A stretch of 64,000 nucleotides of DNA from Candidatus Omnitrophota bacterium (GTDB lineage Bacteria > Omnitrophota > Gorgyraeia > Gygaellales > Profunditerraquicolaceae): NCBI GenBank assembly GCA_025453395.1, contig JALOQK010000001.1, positions 74,244 to 138,243 of the forward strand, written 5' to 3'. Positions within the stretch are counted from its first letter, which is position 1. Every line of letters begins with the position of its first letter. This document shows, piece by piece, positions 5,596 through 33,049 of the stretch. A model generated the notes under the pieces. That model saw nothing but the letters and a program-made list of their open reading frames with translations, was not told where the DNA came from and did no database searches. Both the position numbers and the translations under genes were made by a program.

Positions 5596-5754
5596 AGTAA
5601 TTTAAGCCTTTTGTTAAGTTTTACACTCGCAAAGGCTGTATTATACCTTCCGGATAAGTTTTTGTAAAGAAAATTTACCTGTTTTTATTTACAAAATGTC
5701 CCCTTTGCCTTATAATAGGAGAACACTACTTAAAATGAAATTAAACCTAAATTA

Positions 5755-5885
5755 AGTCATCCGAGAATGAGCCGTGAGTTGTGAGCCGTGAGTTTGGGGC
5801 TAGAGTGAGTTGGGAGGAATTTATATTTAAACTCATCCTTATCCTCATCCCAAACCCAATACCCATTACCCATTTCTCATCCTTA
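5755..5885. repeat. Family A element, copy 2 (inverted relative to copies 1 and 3)
   Basis: gagtgagttgggagg...cccaaacccaatacccattacccatttctcat is the reverse complement of the A1/A3 arms; sits in the divergent hisG/ppiD-like promoter region. Confidence 0.65.
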
Positions 5886-5926
5886 TAAATCAAAGAATTT
5901 ACAATTATTTTATGGAGAAAATATAA

Positions 5927-7357
5927 ATGCTCAAATTCCTTCGCGACCGCAAAAATTCAAAAAAGATCTGGATATTCTTGGCCATTGTCATAGTGATCCC
6001 CTTTGCTTTCTGGGGGGCAGGATCAGTTGTTTCTGATAAAAACTACGCCGGCTACGTTGGCACTATCTGCGGAAGAAAAATCACAAGCTCGCAATTTCAG
6101 GATTCTTATAACGCCACAGCCGCCAGGCTGCGCCTGCAATTCCCGGATCAATTCGATCAATTAAAAGACTCCCTGGACCTTGAATCCCAGGCCTGGGAGA
6201 GGCTGGTACTTATCAGCGAAGCCAAAAGGCGCAATATCAAGGTAACAGATCAAGAAGTTATAAAAGATATAACCGCCAACCCCACTTTTCAAGGGAAAAA
6301 CGGCTTTGATGATTCCGCCTACAAACATATTATAAAATATTACCTGCACAGCTCACCACGGGCATTTGAAGAACAGACCCGGGAAAGTTTAATGCTTGCC
6401 AAATTATATGATCAGGTCACCTGCGTTGTAAAATTAGACGACGAGCAATTAAAAGAAGAATACCGCAAAGCCAACGAAGAATTAAGCATCTCTTACATAA
6501 GCGCGCAATACGCAGAGCTTGAAAAGAATATCCAGGCCGATGATGAAACTTTAAAATCATACTTTCAAAACAACTCCATAAAATTCAAAGAGCCGCTGTC
6601 CTTTAATTTAGAATACGTCAAAATAGAGGCCGAGGAAAAAACAAGCCTTAAACAGAGAAGCGAAAAGATATTCCTTCTGGCGCAAAAAAATATCCCTTTA
6701 AAGAAAATAGCCCAGGAAAATAAACTTACCCTTAAGGAAACCGGCCTGTTCCCGGAAACCGGCCCCATCCCGGAAATTGGATGGGCAAAGCAGATAATCA
6801 ACGCGCTGCCTAAAATAAAGCCTGACGAATACCTGCCCCCTTACTGTAATCAACAGGCCTGTTTTTTAGCGAAAATAAAAGTAAAAATGGACCCCTATAT
6901 ACCGGAGTTTACAACCATCAAGGATAAAATAAAAATCATCTTTTCCAGAGAAAAAGCCAAAGAACAAGCTAAAGAAAGAATTGAAAAATGCCTGGCGCGC
7001 CTTAAGGAACAGCCGGATTCAGATATTTTTGAAACAACTGCCGTGGAAAACGGGCTAAAATACGCCTCCACTTCCTTTTTTAAATTCGCCAGCTACATCG
7101 AAGGCATTGGCTCATCCTCTGAATTCTGGTTAACAGCAGAAAAATTACAACCAAACAAGGCCAGCGAAATTATCTCTACCCCCACAGCGTTATTTATTAT
7201 CCGTTTAAAAGAAAAAAAGGAAGCGGATTGGAATAAATTTGAAGAAGATAAGAAAACATTCTCGGAAAAAATACTTTCCGATAAAAAAAATGAATACTTT
7301 ACCTCTTTCTTAAAAGAACTTGATAAAAAGGCCTTTTTTAAAACAAGCCAAAGCTAA
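5927..7357 (+). CDS. Periplasmic chaperone, PpiD/SurA-N-domain-like, membrane-anchored
   Basis: N-terminal signal-anchor (IWIFLAIVIVIPFAFWG), then a SurA-N-like helical region; length and organisation resemble PpiD. No clear parvulin catalytic motif seen. Confidence 0.5.
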   Translation: MLKFLRDRKNSKKIWIFLAIVIVIPFAFWGAGSVVSDKNYAGYVGTICGRKITSSQFQDSYNATAARLRLQFPDQFDQLKDSLDLESQAWERLVLISEAKRRNIKVTDQEVIKDITANPTFQGKNGFDDSAYKHIIKYYLHSSPRAFEEQTRESLMLAKLYDQVTCVVKLDDEQLKEEYRKANEELSISYISAQYAELEKNIQADDETLKSYFQNNSIKFKEPLSFNLEYVKIEAEEKTSLKQRSEKIFLLAQKNIPLKKIAQENKLTLKETGLFPETGPIPEIGWAKQIINALPKIKPDEYLPPYCNQQACFLAKIKVKMDPYIPEFTTIKDKIKIIFSREKAKEQAKERIEKCLARLKEQPDSDIFETTAVENGLKYASTSFFKFASYIEGIGSSSEFWLTAEKLQPNKASEIISTPTALFIIRLKEKKEADWNKFEEDKKTFSEKILSDKKNEYFTSFLKELDKKAFFKTSQS

Positions 7358-7368
7358 ATAAGCATAAA

Positions 7369-7911
7369 TTGCCTGTTGCCATGAATAAACTAAAGAAATC
7401 CTTAGCCAACAAAGGTATGGCCCTGGCAGAAGTGCTGGTAGCGGCATTTCTTTTAAGTGGCGCCTTTGCCGGAACAATCGCCTTTATCTCGCAATACCTG
7501 CGCGGTCTTGAACACTCCCAAAATATGACCTTGGCAATTAATGCCGCCCAGCAAAGAATTGAATCTATCTTGGGCCGCGTCAACCCCACAGCTCCAGATA
7601 CGGTAGAAGACTTTTTCAGCGATACGATAAGCGACTACACTAATAACCCTACCTTTAACGTCTATGACTCTACCGGATCCGCCATGCCAAATTTTAAAGG
7701 CACAACTTATATAAGCAGTCAAAACATCAATGACCTTACCTTTTACAGGATAAAAGCTGTGGTTTGCTGGGAGCAAGCAGGAGGGATACTTATCGGAGAA
7801 GATAAGAATTTAAACGGAGTGCTTGATTCAGGCGAAGATAAAGCCGGCGGAACAGCCAACGAACTTGATTCTCCGGTGAGCATTATTATAAATATAACTA
7901 ATATAGACTAA
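7369..7911 (+). CDS. Type IV minor pilin / pseudopilin (prepilin-type N-terminal cleavage/methylation domain)
   Basis: Leader MNKLKKSLANKG | MALAEVLVAAFLL has G(-1) and E(+5) followed by a hydrophobic helix. Confidence 0.75.
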   Translation: MPVAMNKLKKSLANKGMALAEVLVAAFLLSGAFAGTIAFISQYLRGLEHSQNMTLAINAAQQRIESILGRVNPTAPDTVEDFFSDTISDYTNNPTFNVYDSTGSAMPNFKGTTYISSQNINDLTFYRIKAVVCWEQAGGILIGEDKNLNGVLDSGEDKAGGTANELDSPVSIIINITNID

Positions 7912-7912
7912 A

Positions 7913-8554
7913 ATGCGCGCAAAAAACAAAAAAGGATTTACTCTTTTAGAATTAATGATTAGCGTAGGCATAACCGCGATTATTTCTGCGGCGATACTTA
8001 ATATCTTTAGCATAGGCCTGTCCTCATGGCAGATCGGGGAAGCAAAAATAGAAAGCCAATATCAGGCAAGAAAGGCAATGCAGGAAATAACCCAGGATTT
8101 AAGACTCAGCAATCCCGGGCATATAGACGTGCTTAATGATAGCAATACCGAGATACAAACAGGAATAGGGACAAAACTGCGTTTTCAAGTGCCTTCATAC
8201 GATAACAAAATAATCCATTTCCTGGGCGGCGATGTGGCTTTAGCCGCGATACGGCTAGATAATGACAATAACATTATCTGGGGCGCGGATAATACCAATG
8301 GTTATTTTATACAATACCAGCTGGTTACATCAGGGACGAACCATCAGTTAGCAAGGGTTATTCTTAACAGCTCCTTTACGCAGGTATCGCGCAGGGTTTT
8401 GGCGAATAATATCTTAGCCGTGGGTTTCAAAGGTATTCCCAGCGGCACCTCTAACCCGCGTTCGGTTGAGATATCCATAACCGGCAGCAATACTATTAAT
8501 ACCGGCCGGTCCGTAAGTTTTAAGCTAACATCACTGATAAATGCACGCAATTAA
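7913..8554 (+). CDS. Type IV minor pilin / pseudopilin, PilW-like
   Basis: Canonical class III signal KKG | FTLLELMISVGI; overlaps the stop of the previous pilin by 1 bp, indicating an operon. Confidence 0.8.
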   Translation: MRAKNKKGFTLLELMISVGITAIISAAILNIFSIGLSSWQIGEAKIESQYQARKAMQEITQDLRLSNPGHIDVLNDSNTEIQTGIGTKLRFQVPSYDNKIIHFLGGDVALAAIRLDNDNNIIWGADNTNGYFIQYQLVTSGTNHQLARVILNSSFTQVSRRVLANNILAVGFKGIPSGTSNPRSVEISITGSNTINTGRSVSFKLTSLINARN

Positions 8555-8637
8555 AGATGTAAATCAATTGTAAAAACTTATCATTCAGCATAGTGTTGCT
8601 TTAAAATACAGGCTATACTGTTTATTGGAGTAAAAAT

Positions 8638-11577
8638 ATGGCGCATATATTAAGAAATAAAAAAGCCTCGGCATTATTGCTTTCTATGATAACGATTATT
8701 TTTCTAATTAGCGTAACCGCGGCCGCGCTTTTGCGTTATATCACTGAACAAAAATCCACAAATTCAACCCTGGGCAGAATCAAAGGCATCTTTAACGCTG
8801 AAGAAGGCATTTACTATGCCTACGCGGAGCTTTCTAAAAATGCCTTTAACTGGGGCACACACGAATGGAAAAACTCTCAACTTCAGAAAATAGCCAATCC
8901 AACTTTCTCTGTTGCACAAGCTGGCTTTAATAACGACGGCTCATATTACGTGGCCAATCATAATTTTAAGGTGATTGTCTTCCCGGAATTAAGAACTGAC
9001 GGCTCTGAAACAAACGTAGTTATTGTCCGCTCACAGGGCCTTGATAATACAGCAGCCCCTTTGCGCACCATAGAGCTGCGCGTGAGCAAACAATCATTGT
9101 TTGATTATTTTTATTTCTTCCCCTATGACAAAACATTTTCTACCGCCACCTACGACGGCGCCGGTTACGGCAAAATGCACGCCAACGGTAATATTTATTT
9201 TTCCGGTAACCCTATTTTCATTAATCTGACGGAATTGAGCACCGCTGGAAAATTCGCCTTGTCCAACTCCCAATACGCTTCCCCCTATTCTTTTGACAAT
9301 AACAACACAACCATTGACGGAAAAGCGGATCTCTATGGATCATCTGCCCCCCCTTACGAATATTACCTGCCAAGCTCTTTATATAACCCGGGTTATTTTT
9401 TTAACGGAAACTACTATCCTTCAGCAAACAATAACGCGACAGTTGACGGAATAAAACTTCCTATAACATTAGCTACCTCTTGGAAATGGGACCAATACTC
9501 CGGGACAAAAACACAAGCAGAAGTGCCTGTTTCATTCACCGTTGATAACAATGCTCTTTCCTGGCTTGCCAGCAATAAAAGTTTTCTCCCCCCGGCTGAC
9601 TACGCTTCTTTTTCAGCAGCTGTAATAGACGGCACAACGGATAGCTTCTGGAACGCCTGGAAAGCCGCCAATTACACAGACGCAAATACAAGCACCACGG
9701 GAAACTTGGCAAGGGCTTATTGGACAACCTTTTTGGGGCCTACTTATATAAACAATTACGTGAATAACGAATGGTGGACAGATTTAGTTTATGGCAATGG
9801 CCGGACAACCGATGCGAGCTCGGATTTAATTGATGTCAATTTCCTGGACACATCGCAACAAACATCTGACTGGTCAAGCTGGCTATCAGGAAAAAAAGTT
9901 GATATCGTAAAACAGGATACTAACGCTACCGGAACTTTAGATTTGCAAGATATTCTAAAAGATAATTCCAACGGCGGGAAATACCTTACCCCTATAGACA
10001 TACAAACTGATTACAAGGCCAAGGCTTCTTCCGGAGGGATACTCTTAGGTCAAGTTGAAACAAGCGGATATACAGCATGGCTGAATCAACCAAGAACTTT
10101 TACATATTCAGGACATACGTTTAATTATACCATGCGCCAAGACGCAAATGTATATACTTGGGGAACCAACAGGGTAGAGTATATTACAGCTAAAGATGAT
10201 ACTGTTAACCGGTTCTGCGCGGCAGCAGGATATGATCAGGATTGCAGTGACTGCTATGATCTAAGAGATGCTTTTGAATCGGAATTAAGCAGTAATTATT
10301 ATGCCGGTGACGTTATGGGGTGGAACACTGAAGAATTGGAAGAAAAGGGTATTGTAAGCTTTAAAGAATTCTATAACCCGGTCAGGCCTGCCGGATCATC
10401 TTCTTATCTAAATGATTCACAAAATATTGCCTCAGCCAAGAAAACCAAAGCTTTAAATATTGACGTGGAGAAACTGCGCGCCTACCTGGCGGGCAAAGAT
10501 TATAACGGAATTATTTATGTGGAAACGCCAGACGAATCTGACCTTTCTTATGATTATTCGGTCTCTCTTACCAATGCCGGGATATTGCCGGAAAAAGGGT
10601 TAACACTGGTTACCCCGCATAATATTTACGTGAATGGAAGCTTTAACCTTGATTACACAAGAGACAGCGCGACTGAAGCATTCACTCATTATCAAGCAAC
10701 ACATACAGAGAACAACAGCAATGATTATAAATGGCGCAATGCCGCTCTTATAAGCACCAAACGCCTAATTTACACGGTGTCTGACCAATTCTTGGATTAT
10801 GCTGCAAACTTATCTTCTTTCTCAGATATCGCCTCATACCATTACTGGGAACCTAACAGCTCAAGCACATCTTATCCTTATTCATTAGGAAGCTTAAACT
10901 TTATCAATACTTACCTTAATGCTGCCGGGGTAACAGGAAACAATTCTCCGCAGGCGGTAAAAGACTTTTACGCCAAGTACCCGGGCCTAAGCATTCCCGG
11001 TTTATGGACACCTGCGGATATTGAATTCTTAAAATCTAAAGCTGTTTACGACCCCTCTGCGGCAACTGCCGCGAAAGCGCTTCTTGATGCCGGAGAACAA
11101 AATTATGCCACCGCAACTGAATCTAAACAACCCAACAGGGTACTTTATGATATAACTTATAACACCGCTATGGTCTCTGCTTATGACCCCAGCGGTTATA
11201 CCTTAGAGCGCTGGATTAACTCAAGCGGACAAACAGTAAAAAGAAACATTACCGGCGCGTTTATACAGCTTACTGCTGATAAACGCGCTTCTGTGCCATC
11301 AAACTATTCAATAAAAGTTGGAGGAAAATTTTGTTATCAAGTAGGGCCAGGATATGATTATTGGGGTTATTACAGATCTGGCAGGTTTGGGAGCAATCGA
11401 TACGTTCCGCAATTCTCCGACGCATATAACCCCATTTATAATTACGCTTATGAAATTAACTTCGCCAAGAATTCCGCAAGTGGAGCAAGTACCGGCCCCA
11501 TTGCCACAGGCAAAAAGAGTTGGATAGAACTTCCTAATAGCGACTTTTTCCCGGTAAAGAAAATATATTGCCCTTAA
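8638..11577 (+). CDS. Giant PilX-N-domain protein, putative pilus-tip adhesin (979 aa)
   Basis: N-terminus KKASALLLSMITIIFLISVTAAALLRYITEQKST...AEEGIYYAYAEL resembles the PilX_N domain. The rest is N/Y/S/T/G-rich with no catalytic motifs. Last gene of the minor-pilin operon. Confidence 0.6.
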   Translation: MAHILRNKKASALLLSMITIIFLISVTAAALLRYITEQKSTNSTLGRIKGIFNAEEGIYYAYAELSKNAFNWGTHEWKNSQLQKIANPTFSVAQAGFNNDGSYYVANHNFKVIVFPELRTDGSETNVVIVRSQGLDNTAAPLRTIELRVSKQSLFDYFYFFPYDKTFSTATYDGAGYGKMHANGNIYFSGNPIFINLTELSTAGKFALSNSQYASPYSFDNNNTTIDGKADLYGSSAPPYEYYLPSSLYNPGYFFNGNYYPSANNNATVDGIKLPITLATSWKWDQYSGTKTQAEVPVSFTVDNNALSWLASNKSFLPPADYASFSAAVIDGTTDSFWNAWKAANYTDANTSTTGNLARAYWTTFLGPTYINNYVNNEWWTDLVYGNGRTTDASSDLIDVNFLDTSQQTSDWSSWLSGKKVDIVKQDTNATGTLDLQDILKDNSNGGKYLTPIDIQTDYKAKASSGGILLGQVETSGYTAWLNQPRTFTYSGHTFNYTMRQDANVYTWGTNRVEYITAKDDTVNRFCAAAGYDQDCSDCYDLRDAFESELSSNYYAGDVMGWNTEELEEKGIVSFKEFYNPVRPAGSSSYLNDSQNIASAKKTKALNIDVEKLRAYLAGKDYNGIIYVETPDESDLSYDYSVSLTNAGILPEKGLTLVTPHNIYVNGSFNLDYTRDSATEAFTHYQATHTENNSNDYKWRNAALISTKRLIYTVSDQFLDYAANLSSFSDIASYHYWEPNSSSTSYPYSLGSLNFINTYLNAAGVTGNNSPQAVKDFYAKYPGLSIPGLWTPADIEFLKSKAVYDPSAATAAKALLDAGEQNYATATESKQPNRVLYDITYNTAMVSAYDPSGYTLERWINSSGQTVKRNITGAFIQLTADKRASVPSNYSIKVGGKFCYQVGPGYDYWGYYRSGRFGSNRYVPQFSDAYNPIYNYAYEINFAKNSASGASTGPIATGKKSWIELPNSDFFPVKKIYCP

Positions 11578-11580: not shown

Positions 11581-11660
11581 AATAAAGGGGACGGTTCAAA
11601 ATAAAGGGGACGGTTCAAAATAAAGGGGACGGTTCTATTAAATAGAGCCGTCCCCATATT
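11581..11660. terminator. Bidirectional rho-independent terminator with triplicated 19-bp left arm
   Basis: (aataaaggggacggttcaa)x3 then ttaaa tagagccgtcccc; hairpin GGGGACGGTTCTA/TAGAGCCGTCCCC flanked by an A-run upstream and T-run downstream. Lies between convergent genes. Confidence 0.7.
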
Positions 11661-15401: not shown

Positions 15402-16433
15402 TTAATTTGGCCTTATCAGGCCGGAAACTTCAGAAAGAAGCTTCAAAACCCCTGAAGCATCTTGTGCAGACAAAGTCCCTAAACCGCAGCTTGGGGAGAT
15501 AAGAAGGTTTTCTAAAAGCGCTTGTTTGTCTAAGCCTTTCCTGAAAAAGGCCTCTATGCCTTTATTGATCTTCTCTGCCAAGAAAGAAGCCTTCATATCA
15601 GAGCTATACCCTTGAGCCGGCACAATGCCCCAACAAAGGATCCTCTCCTGCTTTAAAAAATTTTCTATTTCCGGGCTATACAAAATAAGCTTATCCAAGA
15701 AGCCGAAAGCGTCAAAATTTATGATTTTCAGGCTGTTGATTTGAGTAAATATGGACCAATCGGTATTGCCGCAGCAATGCACCCCCGGCAATATCCCCGC
15801 CTGGGCTAAACAATCGCAAAATTCGGATAGTGTTGCTACCACGCTTTCCCGCCCCAGCGCGGAATAAGCTGAACCAAAACAGGCCAGATAAGGCTCATCA
15901 ATGAATAAAATAACCGGCTTGCCGAATTCCTCAAGGAATTGCGCCTGCCACAATGCCTTCATTAAAAGGCCTTGGGTAATCGCCTGCATAAAAACCTGAT
16001 CATGTAGAAGTATGACGCCTTTTTCATCTTTGATGCTGGCGGCCATAGTAAACGGCCCGGTAACATGGCACTTTAAGAAAGAAACCCCGCTTAGATCTGT
16101 TTTCTTCAGGCGCTTTCTAAAGGCATATAACCCGCTGGCATAGGCTTCGGAAATGGCAAAATATGCCATCTGTTTACTTATTATCTTCTCGTAAAATACT
16201 TCTAACTCTTTTTCTTTATTTTCCGGAGAGAAAATTACCCCTTCAGCACTGGTCTTAATGCAGGGCAGGCCTTCAATAAACTGCGCGGTCATGCCTTCAC
16301 GCGCGTCTTTCTTAGGAAGCTGCGGCCAAAAAGGTATTTGAGGGGCGTATTGAAAAACTAAATCCAGGGCTTCTTGCGGGTCTTTATAGGGGAGGCTTCC
16401 TATTCCGGTTGCTAAACCTTTAATATTCTTCAC
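15402..16433 (-). CDS. Cobalamin-independent methionine synthase (MetE C-terminal-domain-like / URO-D-like TIM barrel), short form
   Basis: 343 aa; IGSLPY near the N-terminus, VHCCGN and C-terminal PSCGLG resemble the Zn-ligand motifs of the short (archaeal-type) MetE. Confidence 0.5.
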   Translation of the reverse strand: MKNIKGLATGIGSLPYKDPQEALDLVFQYAPQIPFWPQLPKKDAREGMTAQFIEGLPCIKTSAEGVIFSPENKEKELEVFYEKIISKQMAYFAISEAYASGLYAFRKRLKKTDLSGVSFLKCHVTGPFTMAASIKDEKGVILLHDQVFMQAITQGLLMKALWQAQFLEEFGKPVILFIDEPYLACFGSAYSALGRESVVATLSEFCDCLAQAGILPGVHCCGNTDWSIFTQINSLKIINFDAFGFLDKLILYSPEIENFLKQERILCWGIVPAQGYSSDMKASFLAEKINKGIEAFFRKGLDKQALLENLLISPSCGLGTLSAQDASGVLKLLSEVSGLIRPN

Positions 16434-22240: not shown

Positions 22241-22453
22241 TTATCTACTGCGGCGTATGGCAGCTAAACTTATTTTTCTTTTTGTTTCGGCGGAATGGTG
22301 CTTTCCGTACATGGGGTTATTTTTGCCTTTAGTAGCTTGTGATATTTTAGCCAGGGAAGATTTCTTGTGGCGCTTTCCGTACATGGAATTACTCTTTCCT
22401 CTTTGCGCTAAACTGATCTTGCGCTTTGTCGCCTCTGACTGCTTTCTCTTCAT
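22241..22453 (-). CDS. Standalone NUMOD3-repeat DNA-binding mini-protein (70 aa), homing-endonuclease remnant-like
   Basis: Three tandem NUMOD3-type motifs: SEATKRKISLAQRGK..., KSSLAKISQATKGKNNPMYGK, SAETKRKISLAAIRRS. No nuclease domain in frame upstream. Confidence 0.65.
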   Translation of the reverse strand: MKRKQSEATKRKISLAQRGKSNSMYGKRHKKSSLAKISQATKGKNNPMYGKHHSAETKRKISLAAIRRSR

Positions 22454-23836: not shown

Positions 23837-24088
23837 TTATCTTACCCCTTGCGCCACCTGATGCAGGATTTCGGAAATAAAAGTTTGGTATTTAACGCCC
23901 AATTGCCTTGCTTTTTGCTTAATATGTTCCAGATCATAGCTATTCACCCGGATATTCAACACCGCGTCTTTCTTTCTGGCTTCAAGCATCCGCGCGATTC
24001 TATCGTATTCCTCTTTACCCGCAGGCACAAACTCTTCAAAATGATCTTCAATCCATTGCTCCTCTTTGGTTAATTTTATCTTTCTCAT
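23837..24088 (-). CDS. brnA: BrnA-family antitoxin (ribbon-helix-helix)
   Basis: 83 aa; LNIRVNSYDLEHIKQKARQLGVKYQTFISEILHQ matches the BrnA C-terminal RHH pattern. 4-bp overlap with the upstream toxin gene. Confidence 0.75.
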   Translation of the reverse strand: MRKIKLTKEEQWIEDHFEEFVPAGKEEYDRIARMLEARKKDAVLNIRVNSYDLEHIKQKARQLGVKYQTFISEILHQVAQGVR

Positions 24089-24345
24089 ATAATCACCTCT
24101 TTCTTATAAATTTTCTTGTATTTACGACACGGATATAATGTTTTTAAGAAAATACCTTCTGCGTCAGCAACAAATGGCGCCGCCCAAACATACCCATTAT
24201 GTTCATATATCAAAATCCCTTGATTGTTCCTGCTTGGATGTTGCAGGACATCTAAAAACTTTGCTTTGACTATTTCTTCGAATGAAACGCCACGTATGCG
24301 TTTTAATCTTGCACTTTTTGTTACATTCCATCTGATTGCCTCCAT
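24085..24345 (-). CDS. brnT: BrnT-family toxin (DUF497 RNase)
   Basis: 86 aa; W..K...N..KHGVSFEE-like N-terminus (RWNVTKSARLKRIRGVSFEEIVKAKF); toxin-first gene order typical of BrnTA. Confidence 0.75.
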   Translation of the reverse strand: MEAIRWNVTKSARLKRIRGVSFEEIVKAKFLDVLQHPSRNNQGILIYEHNGYVWAAPFVADAEGIFLKTLYPCRKYKKIYKKEVII

Positions 24346-24811: not shown

Positions 24812-26650
24812 TCATGCAAGTCTATTAGAATCGGCGATGGCTTGCTTTATCTTATCCGTTACTTTATGCTTAGCTAATTCTTCCAAAGAAAGCGGAAGAA
24901 CCAAAGACCAGTTGGTCTGATTGGTAGTTCCGGGAAAGTTGATGCGGTATTGGTAAGGATCACCTTTAAAAATGCCTCCCATAGAGAGTAAATCCGTGAT
25001 CAATTGGATGGAAAATATTGCGGAAGTTTCATAATTAAACTTTAACGCCTTTTCTACTAGCTCATCACTTGCTTCTTCTTGCATGACACCAGTCATTCCT
25101 AGAAGTTTCCAAAGTTTTTCTTTTTCCTGATAAGTATTCTGATACATCTCAATAAAGTCGCCGACTTCTTCTTTTCTTTTGCCTAAGATCCAAACCAAAG
25201 TATCAATATTATCTATTGAATTTTTCCAACGCAAACGCCCATGGCAGGATAACGCGGCATCAAAAAGTTTATCTTTAGTCAACTCGTAATCTATTCTTCT
25301 ATCCTGACACTTACAGGCAAAAAGCCCGTCGTCAATTGTGCCTGCCTCATATTTCCACCAGGCAGCGAAATTTGTCGTGTCATGAGTTGAGAGCATGGTT
25401 ACAGAAGTTTTACGATACTCATAAGCAGGCAAAAAATCATGCCGGTTGCTCCAATCCTTGACCCAGCGCGCCACATCATTACCCGGTATGCCCATATCAC
25501 GCAGGGTATCTGTGCAAACCTTAGGGATTACCCCTAGATCCTCAGCGCACAAAAGCATATCCGATGAATCAAGCATTACTGACAAAATATCCCGGCCCTG
25601 TTTGCCCCAAACATTTTCATCAACTGGGTCAAACGCGCCGCGGCTGCCTTTATTCTCTTCTGGGTCGCTATAAGGAATACTCCAAATTCTAAACAACCCC
25701 ACCACATGGTCCACGCGCAAGATATTATAGAAATTAGAAGCGTATTTAAACTTCTCGCGCGCGTACCTGTAATCATCTTTAGCGATATTCTGCCAGTTAT
25801 AAGTAGGCATGCCCCAACGCTGACCCCTAGAGCAATACATATCAGGAGGGGCCCCTGATGCAAATTCAAGCTTAAAGAATCCCGGATTAGCCCAGACATC
25901 CGCGCTGTCCCGCGACACCAGAATCGGAAGGTCCCCCTTCAGAAAAACCCCCTTAGAATTGGCATGTTTCAAAACATCATTTAACTGTTTAAAAGCTACA
26001 TACTGCAGCCAAACCTGAAAATCTATTTCCTGTTTATTCTTGCGCTGTGCATGCTCAAGGGCTTTTTTGTCACGGCTTGCCAAATCCAAATCCCAATCAT
26101 ACCAGGCGCGCCCGCCTTGTGTTGCCTTAAGCACTTTAAAAAAAGCAAAGTCCTCCAGCCAATAGCTGTTCTCATGCCGGAATCTTATTAAAGCCTTATC
26201 ATCGCAAGTGCCGCTTAAAGAAAATATCTTCCAGAATAATTCCATTTTCCTTTGTTTGATCCGGTAATCCAGGTTCTTCGCAGGCAAAGGAAATTCCGCG
26301 CGGATTTTTTCTATATCCTGTTTCACATGCTTGATCTGCCCTGCAGGCAATAAAGAAAATGATATATACAAAGGCTCAATAGCAAAAGAACTCAAAGCAT
26401 CATAGGGGCAATTAACCCAGCCCATTTCATTAAGCGGCAATAGCTGCAAAATAGAATTACCGGTCTTGGCGCACCAGTCCACAAACTTTTTTAAATCCGC
26501 GAAATCTCCTACGCCAACGCTATCGCGTGAATACAGGGAAAATAAAGGCAGCGCCACCCCTGCTCTTTTTCCTGTTCCAATCTTCTGCCACTTAGAAGCG
26601 GATATGGTATTTAAAAGCGGATTTTCTTCTGCGAGTTTTTTATCTGTCAT
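24812..26650 (-). CDS. malQ: 4-alpha-glucanotransferase (amylomaltase, GH77)
   Basis: GVALPLFSL, GDLPILVS and DHVVGLFRIW motifs of GH77; 612 aa with an N-terminal extension. Confidence 0.8.
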   Translation of the reverse strand: MTDKKLAEENPLLNTISASKWQKIGTGKRAGVALPLFSLYSRDSVGVGDFADLKKFVDWCAKTGNSILQLLPLNEMGWVNCPYDALSSFAIEPLYISFSLLPAGQIKHVKQDIEKIRAEFPLPAKNLDYRIKQRKMELFWKIFSLSGTCDDKALIRFRHENSYWLEDFAFFKVLKATQGGRAWYDWDLDLASRDKKALEHAQRKNKQEIDFQVWLQYVAFKQLNDVLKHANSKGVFLKGDLPILVSRDSADVWANPGFFKLEFASGAPPDMYCSRGQRWGMPTYNWQNIAKDDYRYAREKFKYASNFYNILRVDHVVGLFRIWSIPYSDPEENKGSRGAFDPVDENVWGKQGRDILSVMLDSSDMLLCAEDLGVIPKVCTDTLRDMGIPGNDVARWVKDWSNRHDFLPAYEYRKTSVTMLSTHDTTNFAAWWKYEAGTIDDGLFACKCQDRRIDYELTKDKLFDAALSCHGRLRWKNSIDNIDTLVWILGKRKEEVGDFIEMYQNTYQEKEKLWKLLGMTGVMQEEASDELVEKALKFNYETSAIFSIQLITDLLSMGGIFKGDPYQYRINFPGTTNQTNWSLVLPLSLEELAKHKVTDKIKQAIADSNRLA

Positions 26651-26651
26651 A

Positions 26652-27461
26652 TTAGTAGCAAATTACCATGTTTAAAATATTGCCATAAAAAAATAGCGAC
26701 GCCAAAGCCGCCAATGCCAAAAATGGCCCATAAGGCAGAGTGTGGTCTTTTTTCACGATCATATTTACTACCCCAAAGATGATCCCGGCAAAGGGAGCCA
26801 AGAAAAATGTCATAAGCGCTCTTTCCCAGCCTAAGAAAGCTCCGATCATCGCCAAGAGCTTTACGTCTCCTCCGCCCATGGATTCAGTTTCTCCATTAAT
26901 CGCGGGTTTTTTAAGCAATTTAAAATAGATAAGATCAAATATCCAACCGGTCAAATAAATTACTCCCCCGCCAATAATAATCCCCGAAAGCGAGTAAACT
27001 GCTGGATGCCAATTCCACGAGAAAGGTTTTAAGCTTAAGCCTCTTATAATGTTAAAAACAAGCCCCAAGACTATCCCTCCGATGGAGATTTCATCCGGAA
27101 TAATCCTGTGTTTGATATCCACGAATGTGCCCACAATTAACCCGCAGATAAAGGTAAGATAATAAAAGAAACTGAAACTTAAACCATAAAGGTTAAAACA
27201 TAAAAGAAACACAAGCGCGGTTAAAAGCTCAACCAGTATATAGCGCGGGGAAATCGGCTTCTTGCAATAACGGCACTTCCCCAACAAAAATATATAACTT
27301 ATAAAAGGAATATTATCATACCAAGAAAGCGGTTTTTTGCAGGAAGGGCAATGCGAAGCCGGAAAAACTACCGATTCTTCCAAGGGCATCCTATGGATGC
27401 AGACGTTTAAGAAACTGCCCACAATCGAGCCAAAAAGAAAAACAAATATCTTTTCTAACAT
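26652..27461 (-). CDS. pilD: Prepilin peptidase (type IV leader peptidase / N-methyltransferase, A24 family)
   Basis: N-terminal CPSC...CRYC zinc motif, catalytic Asp-containing loops, eight TM helices. Confidence 0.8.
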   Translation of the reverse strand: MLEKIFVFLFGSIVGSFLNVCIHRMPLEESVVFPASHCPSCKKPLSWYDNIPFISYIFLLGKCRYCKKPISPRYILVELLTALVFLLCFNLYGLSFSFFYYLTFICGLIVGTFVDIKHRIIPDEISIGGIVLGLVFNIIRGLSLKPFSWNWHPAVYSLSGIIIGGGVIYLTGWIFDLIYFKLLKKPAINGETESMGGGDVKLLAMIGAFLGWERALMTFFLAPFAGIIFGVVNMIVKKDHTLPYGPFLALAALASLFFYGNILNMVICY

Positions 27462-27463
27462 TT

Positions 27464-28303
27464 TTAACCTTTCGCTATAGCGTTATTTAAAGCATCGCGC
27501 ATTACATCAATGGGGGCGATTTTGCCGGTAAATATCTCAAAGGACTTTGCCCCCTGATAAAGAAGCATGCCTAAACCATTTAAAGCGGCAGCTTTTTTCT
27601 TGCGCGCCAATTCTAAAAGTTTGGTTTGGGCTGGATTATAAATTAGATCATAGACGTATAATTCCGGATAGATCATCTCCAAAGCAACCAAGCAGGGATC
27701 ATCTTGTTTCATCCCTACGGGGGTGGCATTGACCAAAAGCTGCGCCTGTTTTATATTCAATTCTTCTACCGAAGAAGCGCAGGAAAATTTAATCTTGGGA
27801 AATTTGTTTCTTAGCCGCGATAGAAGTGTTTCGCATCTGGAAGAATCAAGATCATACACAGCTAAGCTTTGGATCCCGGCAAAAGCCAAATACGCGCTAA
27901 CTGCCTTGGCTGCCCCTCCGCAGCCCAGCATGGCTACTTTCTTATTACGCGGGTCAAACCTCATGTCACTTGTCAAATGCCTGATAAACCCTTCGCCATC
28001 AGTATTAAAACCTGTGAGTTTACCGGCTTCGGCCTTAATAGTATTAACCGCGCCGATAAATTCTGCTTCCGGAGAAAGACTTGTCAAATAGGCAATGACT
28101 TTTTCTTTATAAGGGACAGTAATATTTAGGCCGTGGATATTATTGTCCGCTAAAGTTTTAATAAAATTATCTAATTCTTCGGGATTTTTCTCAAAAAGCT
28201 TATATTCAGCGTCAATTTGCAACTTCTGGAAGGCGGCGTTGTGCATTGCCGGAGAAAAACTGTGTTTGACAGGAAAACCCAAAACCCCGTAGATTTTAGG
28301 CAT
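27464..28303 (-). CDS. aroE: Shikimate dehydrogenase
   Basis: GVLGFPVKHSFSP N-terminus, NITVPYK motif and GCGGAAKA Rossmann motif. Confidence 0.85.
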   Translation of the reverse strand: MPKIYGVLGFPVKHSFSPAMHNAAFQKLQIDAEYKLFEKNPEELDNFIKTLADNNIHGLNITVPYKEKVIAYLTSLSPEAEFIGAVNTIKAEAGKLTGFNTDGEGFIRHLTSDMRFDPRNKKVAMLGCGGAAKAVSAYLAFAGIQSLAVYDLDSSRCETLLSRLRNKFPKIKFSCASSVEELNIKQAQLLVNATPVGMKQDDPCLVALEMIYPELYVYDLIYNPAQTKLLELARKKKAAALNGLGMLLYQGAKSFEIFTGKIAPIDVMRDALNNAIAKG

Positions 28304-28310
28304 AAATATT

Positions 28311-29816
28311 TTATAGACTCTCGATTTTATTCAATGCGTTGATATATGCCCTTACTGAAGATTCAATAATATCCGTACTTGCCCCTCTGGAAGTAACTAC
28401 CCTGCCCTTGGCTTTTAGTTTCAAGCTTACTTCGCCAAGCGCGTCTTTTCCTTGAGTGACCGCTTCAATGCGGTAATCCTGAAGTTCACCTTTAATGCCA
28501 GTAGCTTTATCAATGGCCTTAAAGCAGGCATCTACCGGGCCATCTCCTGTGGAAGAAGCGCTTAATTTTTTATTTTTGTAGATCATTGTTACTTCGGCTT
28601 TGGGCGCGATCTTGGTGCCGGAATGAATTTGAAAACCAACAAGCTTCCATACCGGCTTTATGGACTTTATTTCATCTTCCACAAGAGAAACCAAATCATC
28701 ATCAAAGATATTTTTCTTTTTATCGGCTAATTCCTTGAAGCGAAAGTTTACTTTCTCCAACTGCTCTTGGCTTAGAGACACCCCCAGGTCTTTCAGGCGC
28801 TCTGCCAAGGCATGCCTTCCGGAATGTTTGCCCAAAACTATTCCTGTTCCGGTAAACCCCACATCCTCAGGCAAAATAATTTCATAGGTAGAGCGCTCTT
28901 TCAATACCCCGTCTTGATGAATACCGGATTCATGGCGAAAGGCATTTCCTCCCACAATTGCTTTATTCGGAGCAACTACAAATCCTGTAAGTTTACTCAC
29001 CAATCGCGATACTCTATATATCTGATTACAGGCGATATTAGTTTTAACATCCTTAAATATATCCTGGCGGGTTTTGATATTCATTACGATCTCTTCCATA
29101 GAAGCATTGCCCGCGCGCTCGCCAATACCGTTTATAGTGCACTCAACCTGGCGCGCTCCGCTTTTAATTGCTTCCAGGGAATTTGCTACCGCCATACCCA
29201 GATCGTTATGGCAGTGCGTTGAGATAATCGCCTTATTAATATTCGGGACATTGTTCTTGATACTGCGGATCAAATCACCGTATTCTTCAGGCTGGGTGTA
29301 ACCTACGGTATCCGGGATATTTACCGTTGTTGCTCCGGCATTGATTACCGCTTCCAATACCTTAAAGATAAATGCGCGCTCGCTTCTTGAGGCGTCTTCC
29401 GGAGAAAATTCCACATCCGGGCAAAACTTCTTAGCGTATTTTACGCTTTCTACTGCCAAGCGCAAAATCTGATCTTCGGCTTTCTTCAATTTATACTGCA
29501 TGTGGATCTTGGAAGTCGCCAAAAATACATGGATTCGCCCGCGTTTAGCCGGCTTGATCCCGCAAGCGGCCGCGTCAATATCAGCTTTTATTGCCCGCGC
29601 CAAAGCGCAGACAACCGGCCCCTTAATCTCTTTGGCAATTTTTTTAACAGACTGCAAATCTCCGGGGCTGGAGATAGGGAAACCGGCCTCAATAACATCA
29701 ACGCCCATACTGGCTAAAGCATGGGCGATTTCCATCTTTTCAGCAGGGTTAAGGCTTGCCCCCGGCGCCTGCTCCCCGTCGCGAAGTGTAGTATCAAATA
29801 TAATTAGGTTATCCAT
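28311..29816 (-). CDS. leuA: 2-isopropylmalate synthase (or citramalate synthase) LeuA/CimA family
   Basis: IFDTTLRDGEQ start region, HCHNDLGMAVANS motif, C-terminal LeuA dimerisation/regulatory domain. Start placed at MDNLIIFDTT; the longer ORF extends to 29864. Confidence 0.8.
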   Translation of the reverse strand: MDNLIIFDTTLRDGEQAPGASLNPAEKMEIAHALASMGVDVIEAGFPISSPGDLQSVKKIAKEIKGPVVCALARAIKADIDAAACGIKPAKRGRIHVFLATSKIHMQYKLKKAEDQILRLAVESVKYAKKFCPDVEFSPEDASRSERAFIFKVLEAVINAGATTVNIPDTVGYTQPEEYGDLIRSIKNNVPNINKAIISTHCHNDLGMAVANSLEAIKSGARQVECTINGIGERAGNASMEEIVMNIKTRQDIFKDVKTNIACNQIYRVSRLVSKLTGFVVAPNKAIVGGNAFRHESGIHQDGVLKERSTYEIILPEDVGFTGTGIVLGKHSGRHALAERLKDLGVSLSQEQLEKVNFRFKELADKKKNIFDDDLVSLVEDEIKSIKPVWKLVGFQIHSGTKIAPKAEVTMIYKNKKLSASSTGDGPVDACFKAIDKATGIKGELQDYRIEAVTQGKDALGEVSLKLKAKGRVVTSRGASTDIIESSVRAYINALNKIESL

Positions 29817-33044: not shown

Positions 33045-33049
33045 AATCC

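What the first reader, a model, noticed from the sequence alone, without database searches (positions are those of the whole stretch)
5927..11577. Minor-pilin operon ending in a 979-aa PilX-like adhesin, preceded by a PpiD-like chaperone; the prepilin peptidase sits 15 kb away inside an amino-acid/sugar operon
Two prepilin-signal proteins (G|MALAE and G|FTLLE) are followed by a giant protein with a PilX_N-like non-cleaved anchor and an N/Y/S/T/G-rich body and no PilY1-type domain. This suggests a lineage-specific pilus-tip or surface adhesin that fuses PilX/PilY1 roles. Its only + strand neighbours are the chaperone-like gene upstream. The cognate peptidase pilD (26652..27461) is wedged between aroE and malQ with 2-3-bp spacers. 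No major pilin, pilB/C/T/M-Q genes are in the window.
Basis: partly seen in the sequence, partly recalled or inferred. Interest (0 to 1): 0.6.

Follow-up and report, generated by a model that had tools for sequence, protein, structure and literature searches.

The report
Giant pilus-tip pilin operon, Omnitrophota
A four-gene operon in an uncultivated Omnitrophota bacterium encodes a membrane chaperone, two small minor pilins and a 979-residue protein with a pilin-like head, which belongs to a large unannotated family seen so far almost only in this phylum and most likely caps a type IV pilus-like fibre as its adhesive tip.

Summary
Window 5927-11577 (+) carries four tightly spaced genes: a PpiD-like chaperone, two prepilin-type proteins and a 979-aa protein. 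A promoter-like site lies upstream and a strong terminator downstream. A canonical prepilin peptidase sits 15 kb away, between aroE and malQ. No other pilus gene is in the window.

The small proteins are GspI/PilV-like (s1) and GspJ/XcpW-like (s2). The s2 call has fold-level support. The large protein (BIG) has a pilin-type head (long helix plus beta-sheet, residues 1-157) and an approximately 820-residue beta-rich body. The body matches no Pfam, NCBIfam or PDB entry.

BIG is not a lineage oddity. An exhaustive search found 485 cluster representatives, and nearly all the named ones are from Omnitrophota. The s1-s2-BIG trio recurs in 13 of 13 assessable loci. In distant relatives it sits directly after the platform gene of a complete pilus/T2SS-like cluster.

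Best reading: an I-J-K-type priming/tip complex whose K subunit carries a large adhesive module. ComZ, GspK and PilX/PilY1 are the closest analogues. The window copy is a satellite module, and the same genome holds a second one.

The "non-cleaved anchor" is doubtful: the family has Gly at -1, and this copy has Ala. New variant of a known kind; moderate interest.

The parts
5688..5716 (+). Best sigma-70-like promoter match (TTTACA-17-TATAAT, 11/12) in the 330-bp divergent intergenic region upstream of the PpiD-like gene
   Evidence: This is a consensus match only and is not verified. The leader 5720-5930 has no significant structure (z = -0.92).
5927..7357 (+). PpiD-like membrane-anchored periplasmic chaperone (476 aa; N-terminal TM helix, SurA_N_3/SurA_N_2, Rotamase_2)
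   Evidence: The NCBIfam PpiD equivalog scores 88 bits, well below its cut-off of 493. The gene occupies the same position in L001, L010 and L015.
7381..7911 (+). s1: GspI/PilV-class minor pilin (176 aa from ATG 7381; the ORF opens at TTG 7369), leader MNKLKKSLANKG|MALAEVLVAA
   Evidence: IMG names it 'Tfp pilus assembly protein PilV'. hhalign scores best against E. coli GspI (93.8 %), covering the N-terminal helix only.
7801..7836 (+). EF-hand-type 12-residue loop DKNLNGVLDSGE inside s1 (putative Ca2+ site)
   Evidence: The strict motif is present in 4 of 15 distinct s1 homologues and a loose DxDxDGxI in 5 more. There is a weak DUF7151 hit at the same place. Metal binding is not tested.
7913..8554 (+). 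s2: GspJ/XcpW-class minor pilin (213 aa), leader MRAKNKKG|FTLLELMISV; 1-bp spacer after s1; conserved C-terminal ...LRN
   Evidence: N_methyl 33 bits, above the 21.2 cut-off. AF2 model pLDDT 83.9. Foldseek top hits are XcpW 3nje (E 2.2e-4, prob 1.0) and the EpsI:EpsJ entry 3cfi (2.9e-3). hhalign scores best against GspJ.
8638..11577 (+). BIG: 979-aa (108.9 kDa, pI 5.2) giant PilX/GspK-class minor pilin-like protein. It has a single N-terminal hydrophobic segment and a Y/N/S/T/W-rich body.
   Evidence: AF2 pLDDT is 84.4 and pTM 0.82.
8638..9108 (+). Pilin-like head of BIG (residues 1-157): leader MAHILRNKKA|SALLL, helix 9-67 with the AEEGIxYAYAE motif, then a beta-sheet at 75-153
   Evidence: DSSP of the model. 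hhalign against a PilX_N+DUF7305 protein of L002 gives prob 97.8, E 1.2e-12 over residues 6-157.
9109..11577 (+). Body of BIG (residues 158-979): a run of short beta-strands at 157-208 suggestive of a solenoid-type repeat (YDGxGxGxxHxNG), then mixed alpha/beta. The conserved core is interrupted by lineage-specific inserts at about 321-360, 421-440, 481-600, 681-700, 721-740, 761-820 and 881-940.
   Evidence: No match in Pfam or NCBIfam, PDB sequences, PDB folds or viral folds.
11625..11655 (+). Strong intrinsic terminator-like hairpin (14-bp stem, 8 GC pairs, T-run) 48 nt after the BIG stop codon, between convergent genes
   Evidence: No + strand terminator-like site lies between 5927 and 11577.
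26652..27461 (-). Prepilin peptidase/N-methyltransferase PilD (269 aa), the presumed processing enzyme, embedded in the ilv-leuA-aroE-pilD-malQ string

Best explanation
The operon encodes a self-contained priming/tip module for a type IV pilus-like filament, built on the GspI-GspJ-GspK (PilV-PilW-PilX) plan.

Proposed mechanism:
1. s1 (I-class), s2 (J-class) and BIG (K-class) are inserted into the inner membrane by their N-terminal hydrophobic helices. The co-transcribed PpiD-like chaperone may help.
2. s1 and s2 are trimmed and methylated by the remote PilD. BIG probably is too, since Ala at -1 is the one substitution known to be tolerated.
3. The three proteins associate through their helices into a heterotrimer. 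This sits on the platform/ATPase machine encoded elsewhere and nucleates polymerisation of a major pilin.
4. BIG lacks Glu5 and carries an approximately 820-residue body that could not pack into a fibre shaft. It must therefore be the first and topmost subunit.
5. The body is thus displayed at the distal end of the fibre. It has a conserved beta-rich scaffold with variable, aromatic/Asn/Ser/Thr-rich inserts, and it most likely acts as the adhesin that contacts a surface, glycan or host/prey cell.
6. Several alternative s1-s2-BIG sets per genome would give alternative tips.

Shown here: the gene anatomy; the prepilin motifs; the J-class fold of s2; the pilin-like head of BIG; family size; conserved trio; embedding in machine clusters of relatives.

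Inferred: the heterotrimer; tip location; processing of BIG; the adhesin function; any role of PpiD.
For: 1. Prepilin signatures. s2 passes the N_methyl and TIGR02532 cut-offs. s1 has KG|MALAE, and 7 of 10 s1 homologues hit TIGR02532.

2. Class assignments. The s2 model (pLDDT 83.9) has XcpW and the EpsI:EpsJ entry as its only probability-1.0 hits in the PDB. In hhalign against E. coli K-12 Gsp proteins, s1 scores best with GspI (93.8 %) and s2 with GspJ (92.6 %). NCBIfam hits for s1 are GspI/PilV/ComGE, and for s2 GspJ/ComGF.

3. The head of BIG. The model shows a 59-residue helix followed by a beta-sheet. The family N-terminus is (N/K)KG|(V/I)(V/I)LI with Gly at -1 in 52 of 56 sequences and never Glu at +5, as in E. 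coli GspK (NEQRG|VALLIV). hhalign gives prob 97.8 to a PilX_N+DUF7305 protein that occupies the third slot of another s1-s2-X module.

4. Conserved trio. s1 and s2 flank BIG in 13 of 13 distinct loci where the flank is present. In 6 loci the module lies inside, or beside the PilM/secretin genes of, a cluster of the form T2SSE(x2)-GGDEF-MshEN-T2SSF | PilM-secretin-PilO-PilN. Where the platform gene is in view, the module directly follows it.

5. One transcription unit. Gaps are 23, 1 and 83 bp, with a promoter-like site upstream, a strong terminator downstream and none inside.

6. A functional PilD is present.

7. Body features. The core is conserved mainly at Gly, Asn, Trp, Tyr, Phe and Pro, with variable inserts. 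There is aromatic/Asn/Ser/Thr enrichment. Two relatives carry dockerin modules.

8. Precedent. ComZ, a pilin with a large beta-solenoid, is argued on steric grounds to be a tip pilin like GspK (PMC6561018). T4aP genes are common in all Omnitrophota classes and are linked there to host attachment (PMC10066038).
Against: - BIG itself hits neither PilX_N nor any GspK model. Only 2 of 52 relatives reach a weak PilX_N score.
- hhalign of the family against E. coli GspK is in register but not significant (10-13 %), and it does not discriminate K from G, H, I or J.
- Foldseek finds no significant PDB analogue. ComZ ranks first, but only at E 0.088.
- The I/J assignments from sequence rest on the N-terminal helix and have small margins.
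- The window copy has Ala at -1, so cleavage is uncertain.
- No H-class (GspH/FimU) minor pilin and no major pilin is seen in the module or in the machine clusters of relatives. s1 could therefore be the fibre subunit.
- A 109-kDa tip has to pass a secretin.
- No expression, localisation or binding data exist.
- The PpiD linkage may be plain synteny.
Confidence: 0.6

Rival explanations
1. The module is the tip of a type II secretion-type pseudopilus, a short periplasmic piston, rather than of an extended surface pilus. BIG would engage the secretin or secreted cargo instead of an external target.
For: The small proteins score best against T2SS pseudopilins (GspI, GspJ, XcpW, EpsJ). The machine clusters of relatives show GspE/GspF-type genes plus a secretin, and no PilT-type ATPase is recognisable in the stretches seen. 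West-Roberts et al. describe such Omnitrophota loci as type II secretion-like (10.1101/2023.11.21.568195).
Against: The clusters carry PilM/PilN/PilO-type alignment genes, not GspC/L/M, and MshE-type ATPases as in MSHA pili. No GspG-like major pseudopilin follows the platform gene. Minor pilins of true T4P in Thermus also look T2SS-like (PMC6561018). A 109-kDa cap on a periplasmic piston is hard to fit. Seymour et al. classify these systems as T4aP.
Confidence: 0.15
2. s1 is the fibre-forming (major) subunit of a dedicated filament. Only s2 and BIG would then be accessory or tip proteins, so each s1-s2-BIG set encodes its own complete small filament.
For: No other pilin gene is present in the complete-looking clusters of relatives. 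s1 directly follows the platform gene, where T2SS and Com operons place the major subunit. s1 has a canonical Glu5 leader.
Against: s1 homologues score better against GspI/PilV/ComGE than against major pilin models, and hhalign ranks GspI above GspG. s1 is duplicated together with every BIG, which fits co-evolving tip partners. s1 diverges fast, with 19-43 % identity among homologues. Major pilins of T4aP are commonly encoded away from minor-pilin operons (established knowledge).
Confidence: 0.12
3. BIG is not processed and not incorporated into a fibre. It stays as a bitopic inner-membrane protein with a large periplasmic domain, for example an assembly or cell-envelope factor, and merely shares a pilin-like anchor.
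For: The window copy has Ala instead of Gly at -1 and lacks Glu5. No Pfam pilin model recognises it. ComZ likewise is not predicted to be a PilD substrate.
Against: Gly at -1 is kept in 52 of 56 relatives, which implies selection for peptidase recognition. A bona fide FTLAE pilin in a related genome also has Ala at -1. GspK and PilX also lack Glu5 yet are assembled (established knowledge). The strict s1-s2-BIG linkage inside pilus machine clusters argues for co-assembly.
Confidence: 0.08

Closest known systems
ComZ-PilA2 of Thermus thermophilus (competence pilus tip; PDB 6qvi)
   Same: Both have a pilin-like, GspK-type head joined to a very large beta-rich module that is too bulky for the fibre shaft. 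Both are encoded next to small T2SS-like minor pilins and have a non-canonical leader. ComZ is the top-ranked PDB chain for the BIG model, and the tip-cap logic applies to both.
   Different: The Foldseek match is not significant (E 0.088, TM 0.16). BIG is nearly twice as long. By the secondary-structure order its body appears to follow the head rather than being inserted in it, but this was not verified in 3D. There is no sequence similarity. ComZ binds DNA, whereas nothing is known here. ComZ is a single protein in Thermus, whereas BIG is a family of 485 clusters.
GspI-GspJ-GspK / XcpV-XcpW-XcpX pseudopilus tip complex of type II secretion
   Same: The gene order is small I-like, medium J-like, large K-like. 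The K member has Gly at -1, no Glu5 and an extra domain that forces it to the top. s2 is a structural match to XcpW/EpsJ. s1 and s2 score best against GspI and GspJ.
   Different: GspK is about 330 aa with an alpha-helical insert, whereas BIG is 979 aa and beta-rich. No GspH or GspG accompanies the trio. All NCBIfam scores are below the curated cut-offs. BIG against GspK is not significant. The surrounding machine in relatives is PilMNO-type.
FimU-PilVWX-PilY1 (Pseudomonas) and minor-pilin/PilY1 tip complexes (Myxococcus) of T4aP
   Same: Both are minor-pilin operons encoded apart from the machine and from pilD. Both carry a large (>100 kDa) tip protein thought to mediate adhesion. Both occur as several alternative sets per genome. 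Both have an EF-hand-like Ca2+ motif in the module: in PilY1 there, in s1 here (the PilY1 facts are from established knowledge).
   Different: PilY1 is a separate, non-pilin protein with a beta-propeller (Neisseria_PilC). No such domain is found here. Here the large module is covalently part of the PilX-class pilin. There are three pilin-like genes rather than five.
Modular or large minor pilins: CofB/TcpB of type IVb pili; PilB/PilC of Streptococcus sanguinis
   Same: The principle is the same: a pilin module carries grafted functional domains that initiate assembly and/or mediate adhesion at the fibre end (established knowledge; CofB is mentioned).
   Different: Their grafted modules (lectin-like, vWA and others) are recognisable folds, whereas the BIG body is not. 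There is no sequence or significant structural similarity.
PilX_N + DUF7305 proteins (Pfam PF14341/PF23981), e.g. the 418-aa protein of L002
   Same: The head is homologous (hhalign prob 97.8 over residues 6-157). It occupies the same third slot after an s1-type and an s2-type gene in the same cluster.
   Different: The body differs. DUF7305 is not detected in BIG or in 52 relatives.
Verru_Chthon cassette (TIGR02596-TIGR02600) of Verrucomicrobia
   Same: These are repeated cassettes of small prepilin-type proteins plus a large protein in a related (PVC) lineage. The s2 N-terminus hits cassette protein C (8.6e-9). The cassette organisation is recalled from the TIGRFAMs description, not tested.
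   Different: The hit covers only the first 58 residues and scores 35 bits against a cut-off of 256. BIG hits no cassette model.

Membership tests
Type IV pilin-like proteins (class III signal peptide, Pfam N_methyl PF07963 / TIGR02532) | Short basic leader ending in Gly, then a hydrophobic helix with Glu at +5, recognised by the HMM above its cut-off | tested here: met
   s2 scores N_methyl 33.0 bits (cut-off 21.2) and TIGR02532 25.0 (cut-off 16.3). s1 has the motif NKG|MALAE by regex but the window copy gets no HMM hit. 7 of 10 s1 homologues hit TIGR02532.
GspJ / XcpW / PilW class (J-type minor pilin), for s2 | Pilin helix plus a two-sheet beta domain structurally like XcpW/EpsJ | tested here: met
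   AF2 model pLDDT 83.9, pTM 0.70. The Foldseek top three are XcpW 3nje_B (E 2.2e-4, prob 1.0, TMt 0.52), 3cfi_E (EpsI:EpsJ entry, E 2.9e-3, TMt 0.55) and 3nje_A. The next hit is at E 0.04.
GspJ equivalog (TIGR01711), for s2 | Score at or above NCBI's curated cut-off (64.85 bits) | tested here: not met
   The score is 20.4 bits, over the N-terminal 60 residues only. 4 of 10 homologues hit it, best E 5e-8, none at the cut-off.
GspI / PilV class (I-type minor pilin), for s1 | Sequence or profile match to GspI (TIGR01707) or PilV (TIGR02523) at the cut-off; small size; partner of the J type | tested here: inconclusive
   The window copy scores 18-19 bits against cut-offs of 44-52. 6 of 10 homologues hit each model. 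hhalign ranks GspI 93.8 % above GspJ 88.3 % and GspG 83.6 %, on the helix only. No structure was predicted for s1.
PilX_N (Pfam PF14341), for BIG | HMM match to the PilX N-terminal domain at or above 25.5 bits | tested here: not met
   The window copy gives no hit at E <= 1. 2 of 52 relatives reach E about 2.5e-4. The indirect link, via the L002 418-aa protein, is strong for the head (hhalign 97.8 %), but that protein itself scores only 20.6 bits on PilX_N.
GspK-class minor (pseudo)pilin, for BIG | Leader with Gly at -1, no Glu at +5, third gene after I and J, extra domain on the pilin fold; sequence or fold match to GspK | tested here: inconclusive
   The leader pattern and the lack of Glu5 are met at family level, while this copy has Ala at -1. 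Gene order is met. The extra domain is met. A sequence match to E. coli GspK is not met (hhalign 10-13 %). No GspK chain appears among the 50 best Foldseek hits listed.
PilY1 / PilC tip adhesin (Pfam Neisseria_PilC PF05567) | C-terminal beta-propeller domain recognised by the HMM | tested here: not met
   There is no hit in BIG or in any of 52 relatives. No PilY1 chain appears among the 50 best Foldseek PDB matches listed.
ComZ-like tip pilin | Significant structural similarity to ComZ (6qvi): pilin domain plus triangular beta-solenoid | tested here: inconclusive
Prepilin peptidase A24 (PilD/GspO), for 26652-27461 | A24_N_bact plus Peptidase_A24 domains, two catalytic Asp motifs, Cys-rich methyltransferase region | tested here: met
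   The scores are 120.7 and 74.2 bits, above the cut-offs. CPSC...CRYC, DIKHRIIPDE and GGGDVKL are read directly from the translation.
PpiD (periplasmic chaperone), for 5927-7357 | N-terminal TM anchor, SurA-like N domain, parvulin-like domain; NCBIfam equivalog PRK10788 at its cut-off | tested here: inconclusive
   The domain set is met (SurA_N_3 100.8 bits, Rotamase_2 35.4 bits). The equivalog scores 88 bits against a cut-off of 493, and the protein is 476 aa against a 626-position model.
Verru_Chthon cassette | Proteins A-D matching TIGR02596-TIGR02600 at their cut-offs | tested here: not met
   Only the s2 N-terminus matches protein C (35 bits against 256). BIG matches nothing.

The most novel reading that the evidence does not exclude
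The approximately 820-residue body would be a previously undescribed fold that serves as the host- or prey-recognition module of ultra-small, probably predatory or parasitic Omnitrophota, and possibly also as an envelope-attacking module. It would be delivered on the end of a retractile fibre. The multiple, rapidly diversifying s1-s2-BIG cassettes per genome would be interchangeable 'warheads' that set host range, much as phage receptor-binding proteins do.
Probability: 0.2. Interest if true: 0.75.

Novelty: new variant of a known kind. Interest (0 to 1): 0.45.

Why it matters
Omnitrophota are widespread and uncultivated. Most are ultra-small, and they are suspected to live attached to or preying on other cells. 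Type IV pili are their most consistent 'symbiosis' trait (PMC10066038), but what the pili bind is unknown.

This work identifies a large, unannotated protein family: at least 485 clusters, 700-1200 aa, with no Pfam or NCBIfam model and no PDB analogue. By anatomy and context it is the best candidate for the pilus-tip contact protein. The work also defines its two obligatory partners.

This gives concrete targets for metaproteomics, structure work and binding assays. It also provides a searchable marker (the s1-s2-BIG trio) for comparing host-interaction repertoires between genomes.

Conceptually it extends the ComZ/GspK principle, a K-type pilin enlarged into a functional tip, to a much larger module and a whole phylum. 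It does not overturn current models of pilus assembly.

Tried and rejected
**Searches on BIG that found nothing**
- Pfam and NCBIfam scans of BIG, and Pfam scans of 52 relatives, gave only stray hits: Tla3_C and Mqo at E about 0.1, 2 dockerin and 2 weak PilX_N. No enzyme or adhesin family can be assigned.
- The family profile searched against PDB sequences matched only geopilin N-termini at E 0.08.
- Foldseek of the BIG model against the PDB and the viral BFVD library gave nothing at E <= 1e-3. A phage tail-fibre or depolymerase relationship is not supported.

- The word-indexed homologue search found only 2 relatives of BIG and almost none for s1 and s2. The family only appeared with the exhaustive HMM search.
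- The search for related loci with broad alignments failed for lack of conserved stretches. The genome-contig scan returned only the already known locus.
This was solved by looking them up as collection proteins.

**Ideas tested and dropped**
- hhalign of the BIG family against E. coli GspK, G, H, I and J was not discriminating. K-class membership cannot be claimed from sequence.
- A structured 5' leader or riboswitch upstream of the operon: the long GU-rich hairpin at 5763-5885 has z = -0.92 and is not significant. Rfam finds only four tRNAs in the window.
- PpiD as a dedicated pilin chaperone: adjacency is conserved only within a lineage where the whole neighbourhood is syntenic, and PpiD is absent from the machine-embedded modules. 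It is kept only as a possibility, prompted by the Rotamase_2 gene reported in Omnitrophota T2SS-like loci.
- BIG as a fragment or relative of the Omnitrophota 'giant' (>20 kb) genes: it has one TM segment, is 979 aa and has no shared domains. Rejected.

Full report
**1. What is in the sequence**

Window 5927-11577 holds four + strand ORFs in a region where nearly all other genes are on the - strand.

- 5927-7357 (476 aa) has an N-terminal membrane helix, SurA_N_3 (9e-29), SurA_N_2 and Rotamase_2 (2e-8). It is PpiD-like, although it scores far below NCBI's PpiD equivalog cut-off.
- 7369-7911 opens at a TTG. The public annotation starts at ATG 7381 (176 aa), which gives the leader MNKLKKSLANKG|MALAEVLVAA.
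- 7913-8554 (213 aa) begins MRAKNKKG|FTLLELMISV and passes the N_methyl and TIGR02532 thresholds.
- 8638-11577 (979 aa, 108.9 kDa, pI 5.2) has one hydrophobic segment at residues 8-36 and no Pfam or NCBIfam hit.

A six-frame scan finds only these two canonical prepilin motifs in the 64 kb. The gaps between genes are 23, 1 and 83 bp. The best promoter-like site of the region (11/12) is at 5688-5716. A 14-bp-stem terminator follows the last gene at 11625-11655, and no + strand terminator-like site lies inside. The four genes therefore look like one operon.

The composition claim is right for Y, N, S and T (and W), but not for G.

**2. The peptidase and the rest of the window**

26652-27461 (-) is a canonical bifunctional prepilin peptidase. 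It has A24_N_bact plus Peptidase_A24, CPSC...CRYC, DIKHRIIPDE and GGGDVKL. It is packed with 2- and 1-bp spacers between aroE and a GH77 4-alpha-glucanotransferase, downstream of ilvD, ilvBNC and a leuA-like gene.

Pfam scans of the other sizeable ORFs gave only housekeeping functions: glycolysis, SAM cycle, PTS, ribosome and translation, carbamoyl-phosphate synthase, CTP synthase, pyruvate:ferredoxin oxidoreductase and others. There was no pilus ATPase, platform, alignment or secretin gene.

**3. Source organism and relatives**

The 979-aa protein (BIG) is identical to MUF05_00435 of a Candidatus Omnitrophica MAG, on a contig of 272 kb.

The word-indexed search found only two relatives. An exhaustive profile search of 1.84 billion cluster representatives found many more:

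| E-value threshold | Proteins found |
|---|---|
| <= 1e-3 | 485 |
| <= 1e-10 | 176 |
| <= 1e-30 | 108 |

Most are 700-1200 aa.

All named members examined are from Omnitrophota MAGs, apart from one old 'Chlamydiae bacterium GWC2' record. Of 52 diverse members scanned against Pfam, 2 reached a weak PilX_N score and 2 had dockerin repeats. None had anything else meaningful. This is a sizeable, unannotated family found almost only in this phylum, not a single-lineage oddity.

**4. The head of BIG is a PilX/GspK-type pilin module**

The AlphaFold2 model was built with 61 sequences (pLDDT 84.4, pTM 0.82). It has a 59-residue helix (9-67) followed by a beta-sheet (75-153), which is the pilin plan.

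Across 61 relatives the N-terminus reads (N/K)(N/K)KG|(V/I)(V/I)L(I)xT. Gly is at -1 in 52 of 56 sequences, Leu at +3 in 56, and T/A/S/V/L/I at +5, never Glu. This is the pattern of E. coli GspK (NEQRG|VALLIVL). The helix carries the A-E-x-G-I-x-Y-A motif.

hhalign of the family against the 418-aa PilX_N+DUF7305 protein of a related cluster gives probability 97.8 (E 1.2e-12) over residues 6-157.

The window copy has Ala at -1 (KKA|SALLL). One canonical FTLAE pilin of a related genome also has Ala there (PEKA|FTLAE). From established work on Pseudomonas PilD, Ala is the only substitution at -1 that still allows some cleavage.

Direct membership tests fail or are inconclusive:
- There is no PilX_N or GspK HMM hit for this copy.
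- hhalign against E. coli GspK is in register but reaches only 10-13 %.

**5. The body**

- Residues 157-208 form eight short strands around the conserved YDGxGxGxxHxNG motif. This periodicity suggests a solenoid-type repeat. The rest is mixed alpha/beta.
- Conservation across the family is discontinuous. Core blocks lie at about 141-300, 361-480, 601-720, 821-880 and 941-960.
- These blocks are separated by segments that most relatives lack: about 321-360, 421-440, 481-600, 681-700, 721-740, 761-820 and 881-940. These include the low-confidence loops of the model.
- The best-conserved residues are mainly Gly, Asn, Trp, Tyr, Phe and Pro, with a handful of Asp, Glu, His and Gln. No recognisable catalytic motif is present.
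- Foldseek against the PDB gives no hit at E <= 1e-3. The top-ranked chain is ComZ of Thermus thermophilus at E 0.088, which is suggestive but not significant.
- The viral structure library gives nothing, and the family profile against PDB sequences gives only pilin N-termini.

The body is thus a scaffold with variable inserts and no known relative. This fits a binding module better than an enzyme, but that is inference.

**6. The two small proteins**

BLAST among modules from different loci sorts the small genes into two orthologous groups, s1 (129-189 aa) and s2 (174-213 aa).

For s2:
- The AlphaFold2 model uses 13 sequences (pLDDT 83.9, pTM 0.70).
- Its only probability-1.0 PDB matches are XcpW, the GspJ of the Pseudomonas T2SS (E 2.2e-4, TM 0.52), and a 158-residue chain of the EpsI:EpsJ entry (E 2.9e-3).
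- NCBIfam hits among ten s2 proteins are ComGF (8), ComGE (8), Verru_Chthon C (6) and GspJ (4, best 5e-8).

For s1:
- NCBIfam hits among ten proteins are ComGE (8), GspI (6, best 5e-7) and PilV (6).
- IMG names the window protein PilV.

In hhalign against E. coli K-12 GspG-K, s1 scores best with GspI (93.8 %) and s2 with GspJ (92.6 %). The alignments cover only the N-terminal helix and the margins are modest. All curated cut-offs are missed.

I therefore call s2 J-class with fold support, and s1 I-class provisionally.

**7. Genomic context across the family**

I collected 15 distinct loci and mapped them with local HMMs.

| Group | Loci | Arrangement |
|---|---|---|
| s1-s2 pair beside BIG | 13 of 13 assessable | The other two loci are cut by contig ends on the relevant side |
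| Machine-embedded | L002, L005, L007, L021, L022, L023 | Two MshEN-T2SSE ATPases, a 1300-aa GGDEF/AAA_16 protein, a stand-alone MshEN protein, T2SSF, then s1-s2-BIG(-BIG)(-s1-s2); on the other strand PilM, secretin, PilO, PilN-like. L021 and L022 are contig fragments that show only the PilM (and secretin) side |
| Satellite with PpiD | window, L001, L010, L015 | PpiD-s1-s2-BIG between hisG and ferredoxin/rubrerythrin, with housekeeping synteny on both sides |

L001 has three BIG copies and two s1-s2 pairs in that slot. The window's own MAG has a second module, BIG(1052)-s1(135)-s2(205), on another contig beside a two-component system (MUF05_04725-04735). That BIG is closest to the second BIG of L005.

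The window operon is thus a dispersed copy of a module whose home is directly after the platform gene of a pilus machine.

**8. Mechanism proposed**

By analogy with the GspI-J-K and PilV-W-X complexes, s1, s2 and BIG would form a helical heterotrimer in the inner membrane that primes fibre assembly on a machine encoded elsewhere. BIG has no Glu5 and a body that cannot be accommodated in a shaft, so it would be the apical subunit, with its body displayed at the fibre end. This is the same steric argument made for ComZ (PMC6561018).

The aromatic/Asn/Ser/Thr-rich composition, the variable inserts, the occasional dockerins and the multiplicity of modules per genome point to a binding role. The literature on Omnitrophota links T4aP to attachment to host cells (PMC10066038).

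The clusters of relatives suggest c-di-GMP control, through the MshEN and GGDEF genes.

The PpiD-like gene is co-oriented and probably co-transcribed. A Rotamase_2 isomerase has been noted in Omnitrophota T2SS-like loci (10.1101/2023.11.21.568195). However, the modules embedded in machine clusters lack it, so a dedicated chaperone role is only a possibility.

Confidence in the tip-module reading is about 0.6.

**9. Rivals**

- A T2SS-type periplasmic pseudopilus tip (0.15).
- s1 as the fibre subunit of a dedicated filament, since no other pilin is seen in the clusters (0.12).
- BIG as an unprocessed inner-membrane protein (0.08).

Each is set out with its tests in the structured fields.

**10. 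Comparison and novelty**

The closest known systems are:
- ComZ-PilA2;
- the GspI-J-K tip;
- the PilVWX-PilY1 complexes;
- the modular pilins CofB/TcpB and PilB/PilC;
- locally, PilX_N+DUF7305 proteins.

The principle is known: a K-type pilin enlarged into a functional cap and encoded with its I and J partners.

Four things are new:
- the size of the module;
- its lack of any detectable relative;
- the absence of a separate PilY1;
- its spread as a large Omnitrophota family with several cassettes per genome.

I rate it a new variant of a known kind, with interest 0.45. The most novel reading not excluded is interchangeable pilus-tip 'warheads' that set host or prey range, possibly with a new fold or activity. 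I give this about 0.2 probability.

Noticed in passing
window 7801-7836 (+), inside s1: A perfect 12-residue EF-hand-type loop, DKNLNGVLDSGE. The strict motif recurs in 4 of 15 distinct s1 homologues and a looser DxDxDGxI in 5 more, always in the longer (>=154 aa) ones. It is possibly a Ca2+ site, as in PilY1 and some pseudopilins.
   Followed up: partly
L008 10001-14169 (same MAG, contig of 187 kb): A second module in the same genome, in the order BIG(1052 aa)-s1(135)-s2(205), beside a HisKA/response-regulator pair. Its BIG is closest to the second BIG of the machine cluster in L005, which suggests two module subtypes.
   Followed up: partly
L005 1-19417; also L002, L007, L023: The pilus/T2SS-like clusters of relatives carry two MshEN-domain T2SSE ATPases, a 1300-1355-aa GGDEF/AAA_16/HEAT protein and a stand-alone 153-aa MshEN protein. 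This implies c-di-GMP control. No major-pilin-like gene is visible in these clusters.
   Followed up: partly
window 24812-34872 (-): pilD is packed with 1-2 bp spacers into a long biosynthetic string: ilvD, ilvB, ilvN, ilvC, leuA-like, aroE, pilD, malQ. This is an unusual home for a prepilin peptidase. I did not check whether it is conserved in relatives.
   Followed up: no
window 23837-24345 (-): A toxin-antitoxin-like pair. The 83-aa protein has a CopG_antitoxin domain (2.3e-6). It overlaps by 4 bp an upstream 86-aa partner that has no Pfam hit.
   Followed up: partly
window 22241-22453 (-): A 70-aa ORF consisting only of two NUMOD3 motifs (3.7e-25). This DNA-binding motif is usually part of homing endonucleases. 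No nuclease domain is attached.
   Followed up: partly
window 5763-5885 (+): A long imperfect GU-rich/CA-rich hairpin with tandem TGAGCCGTGAGTT repeats in the 5' leader of the operon. The folding energy is not better than shuffles (z = -0.92) and there is no Rfam hit.
   Followed up: yes
window 37335-39461 (-) and 15402-16433 (-): A 708-aa ORF and a 343-aa ORF have no Pfam match at all. They lie among glycolysis/SAM-cycle genes and oxidoreductase genes respectively.
   Followed up: no
family members P0036 and one other of alignment A3: Two relatives of BIG end in dockerin type I repeats. West-Roberts et al. describe dockerin-type repeats in Omnitrophota giant proteins, so there may be a cohesin-dockerin link between pilus tips and other surface proteins.
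   Followed up: no
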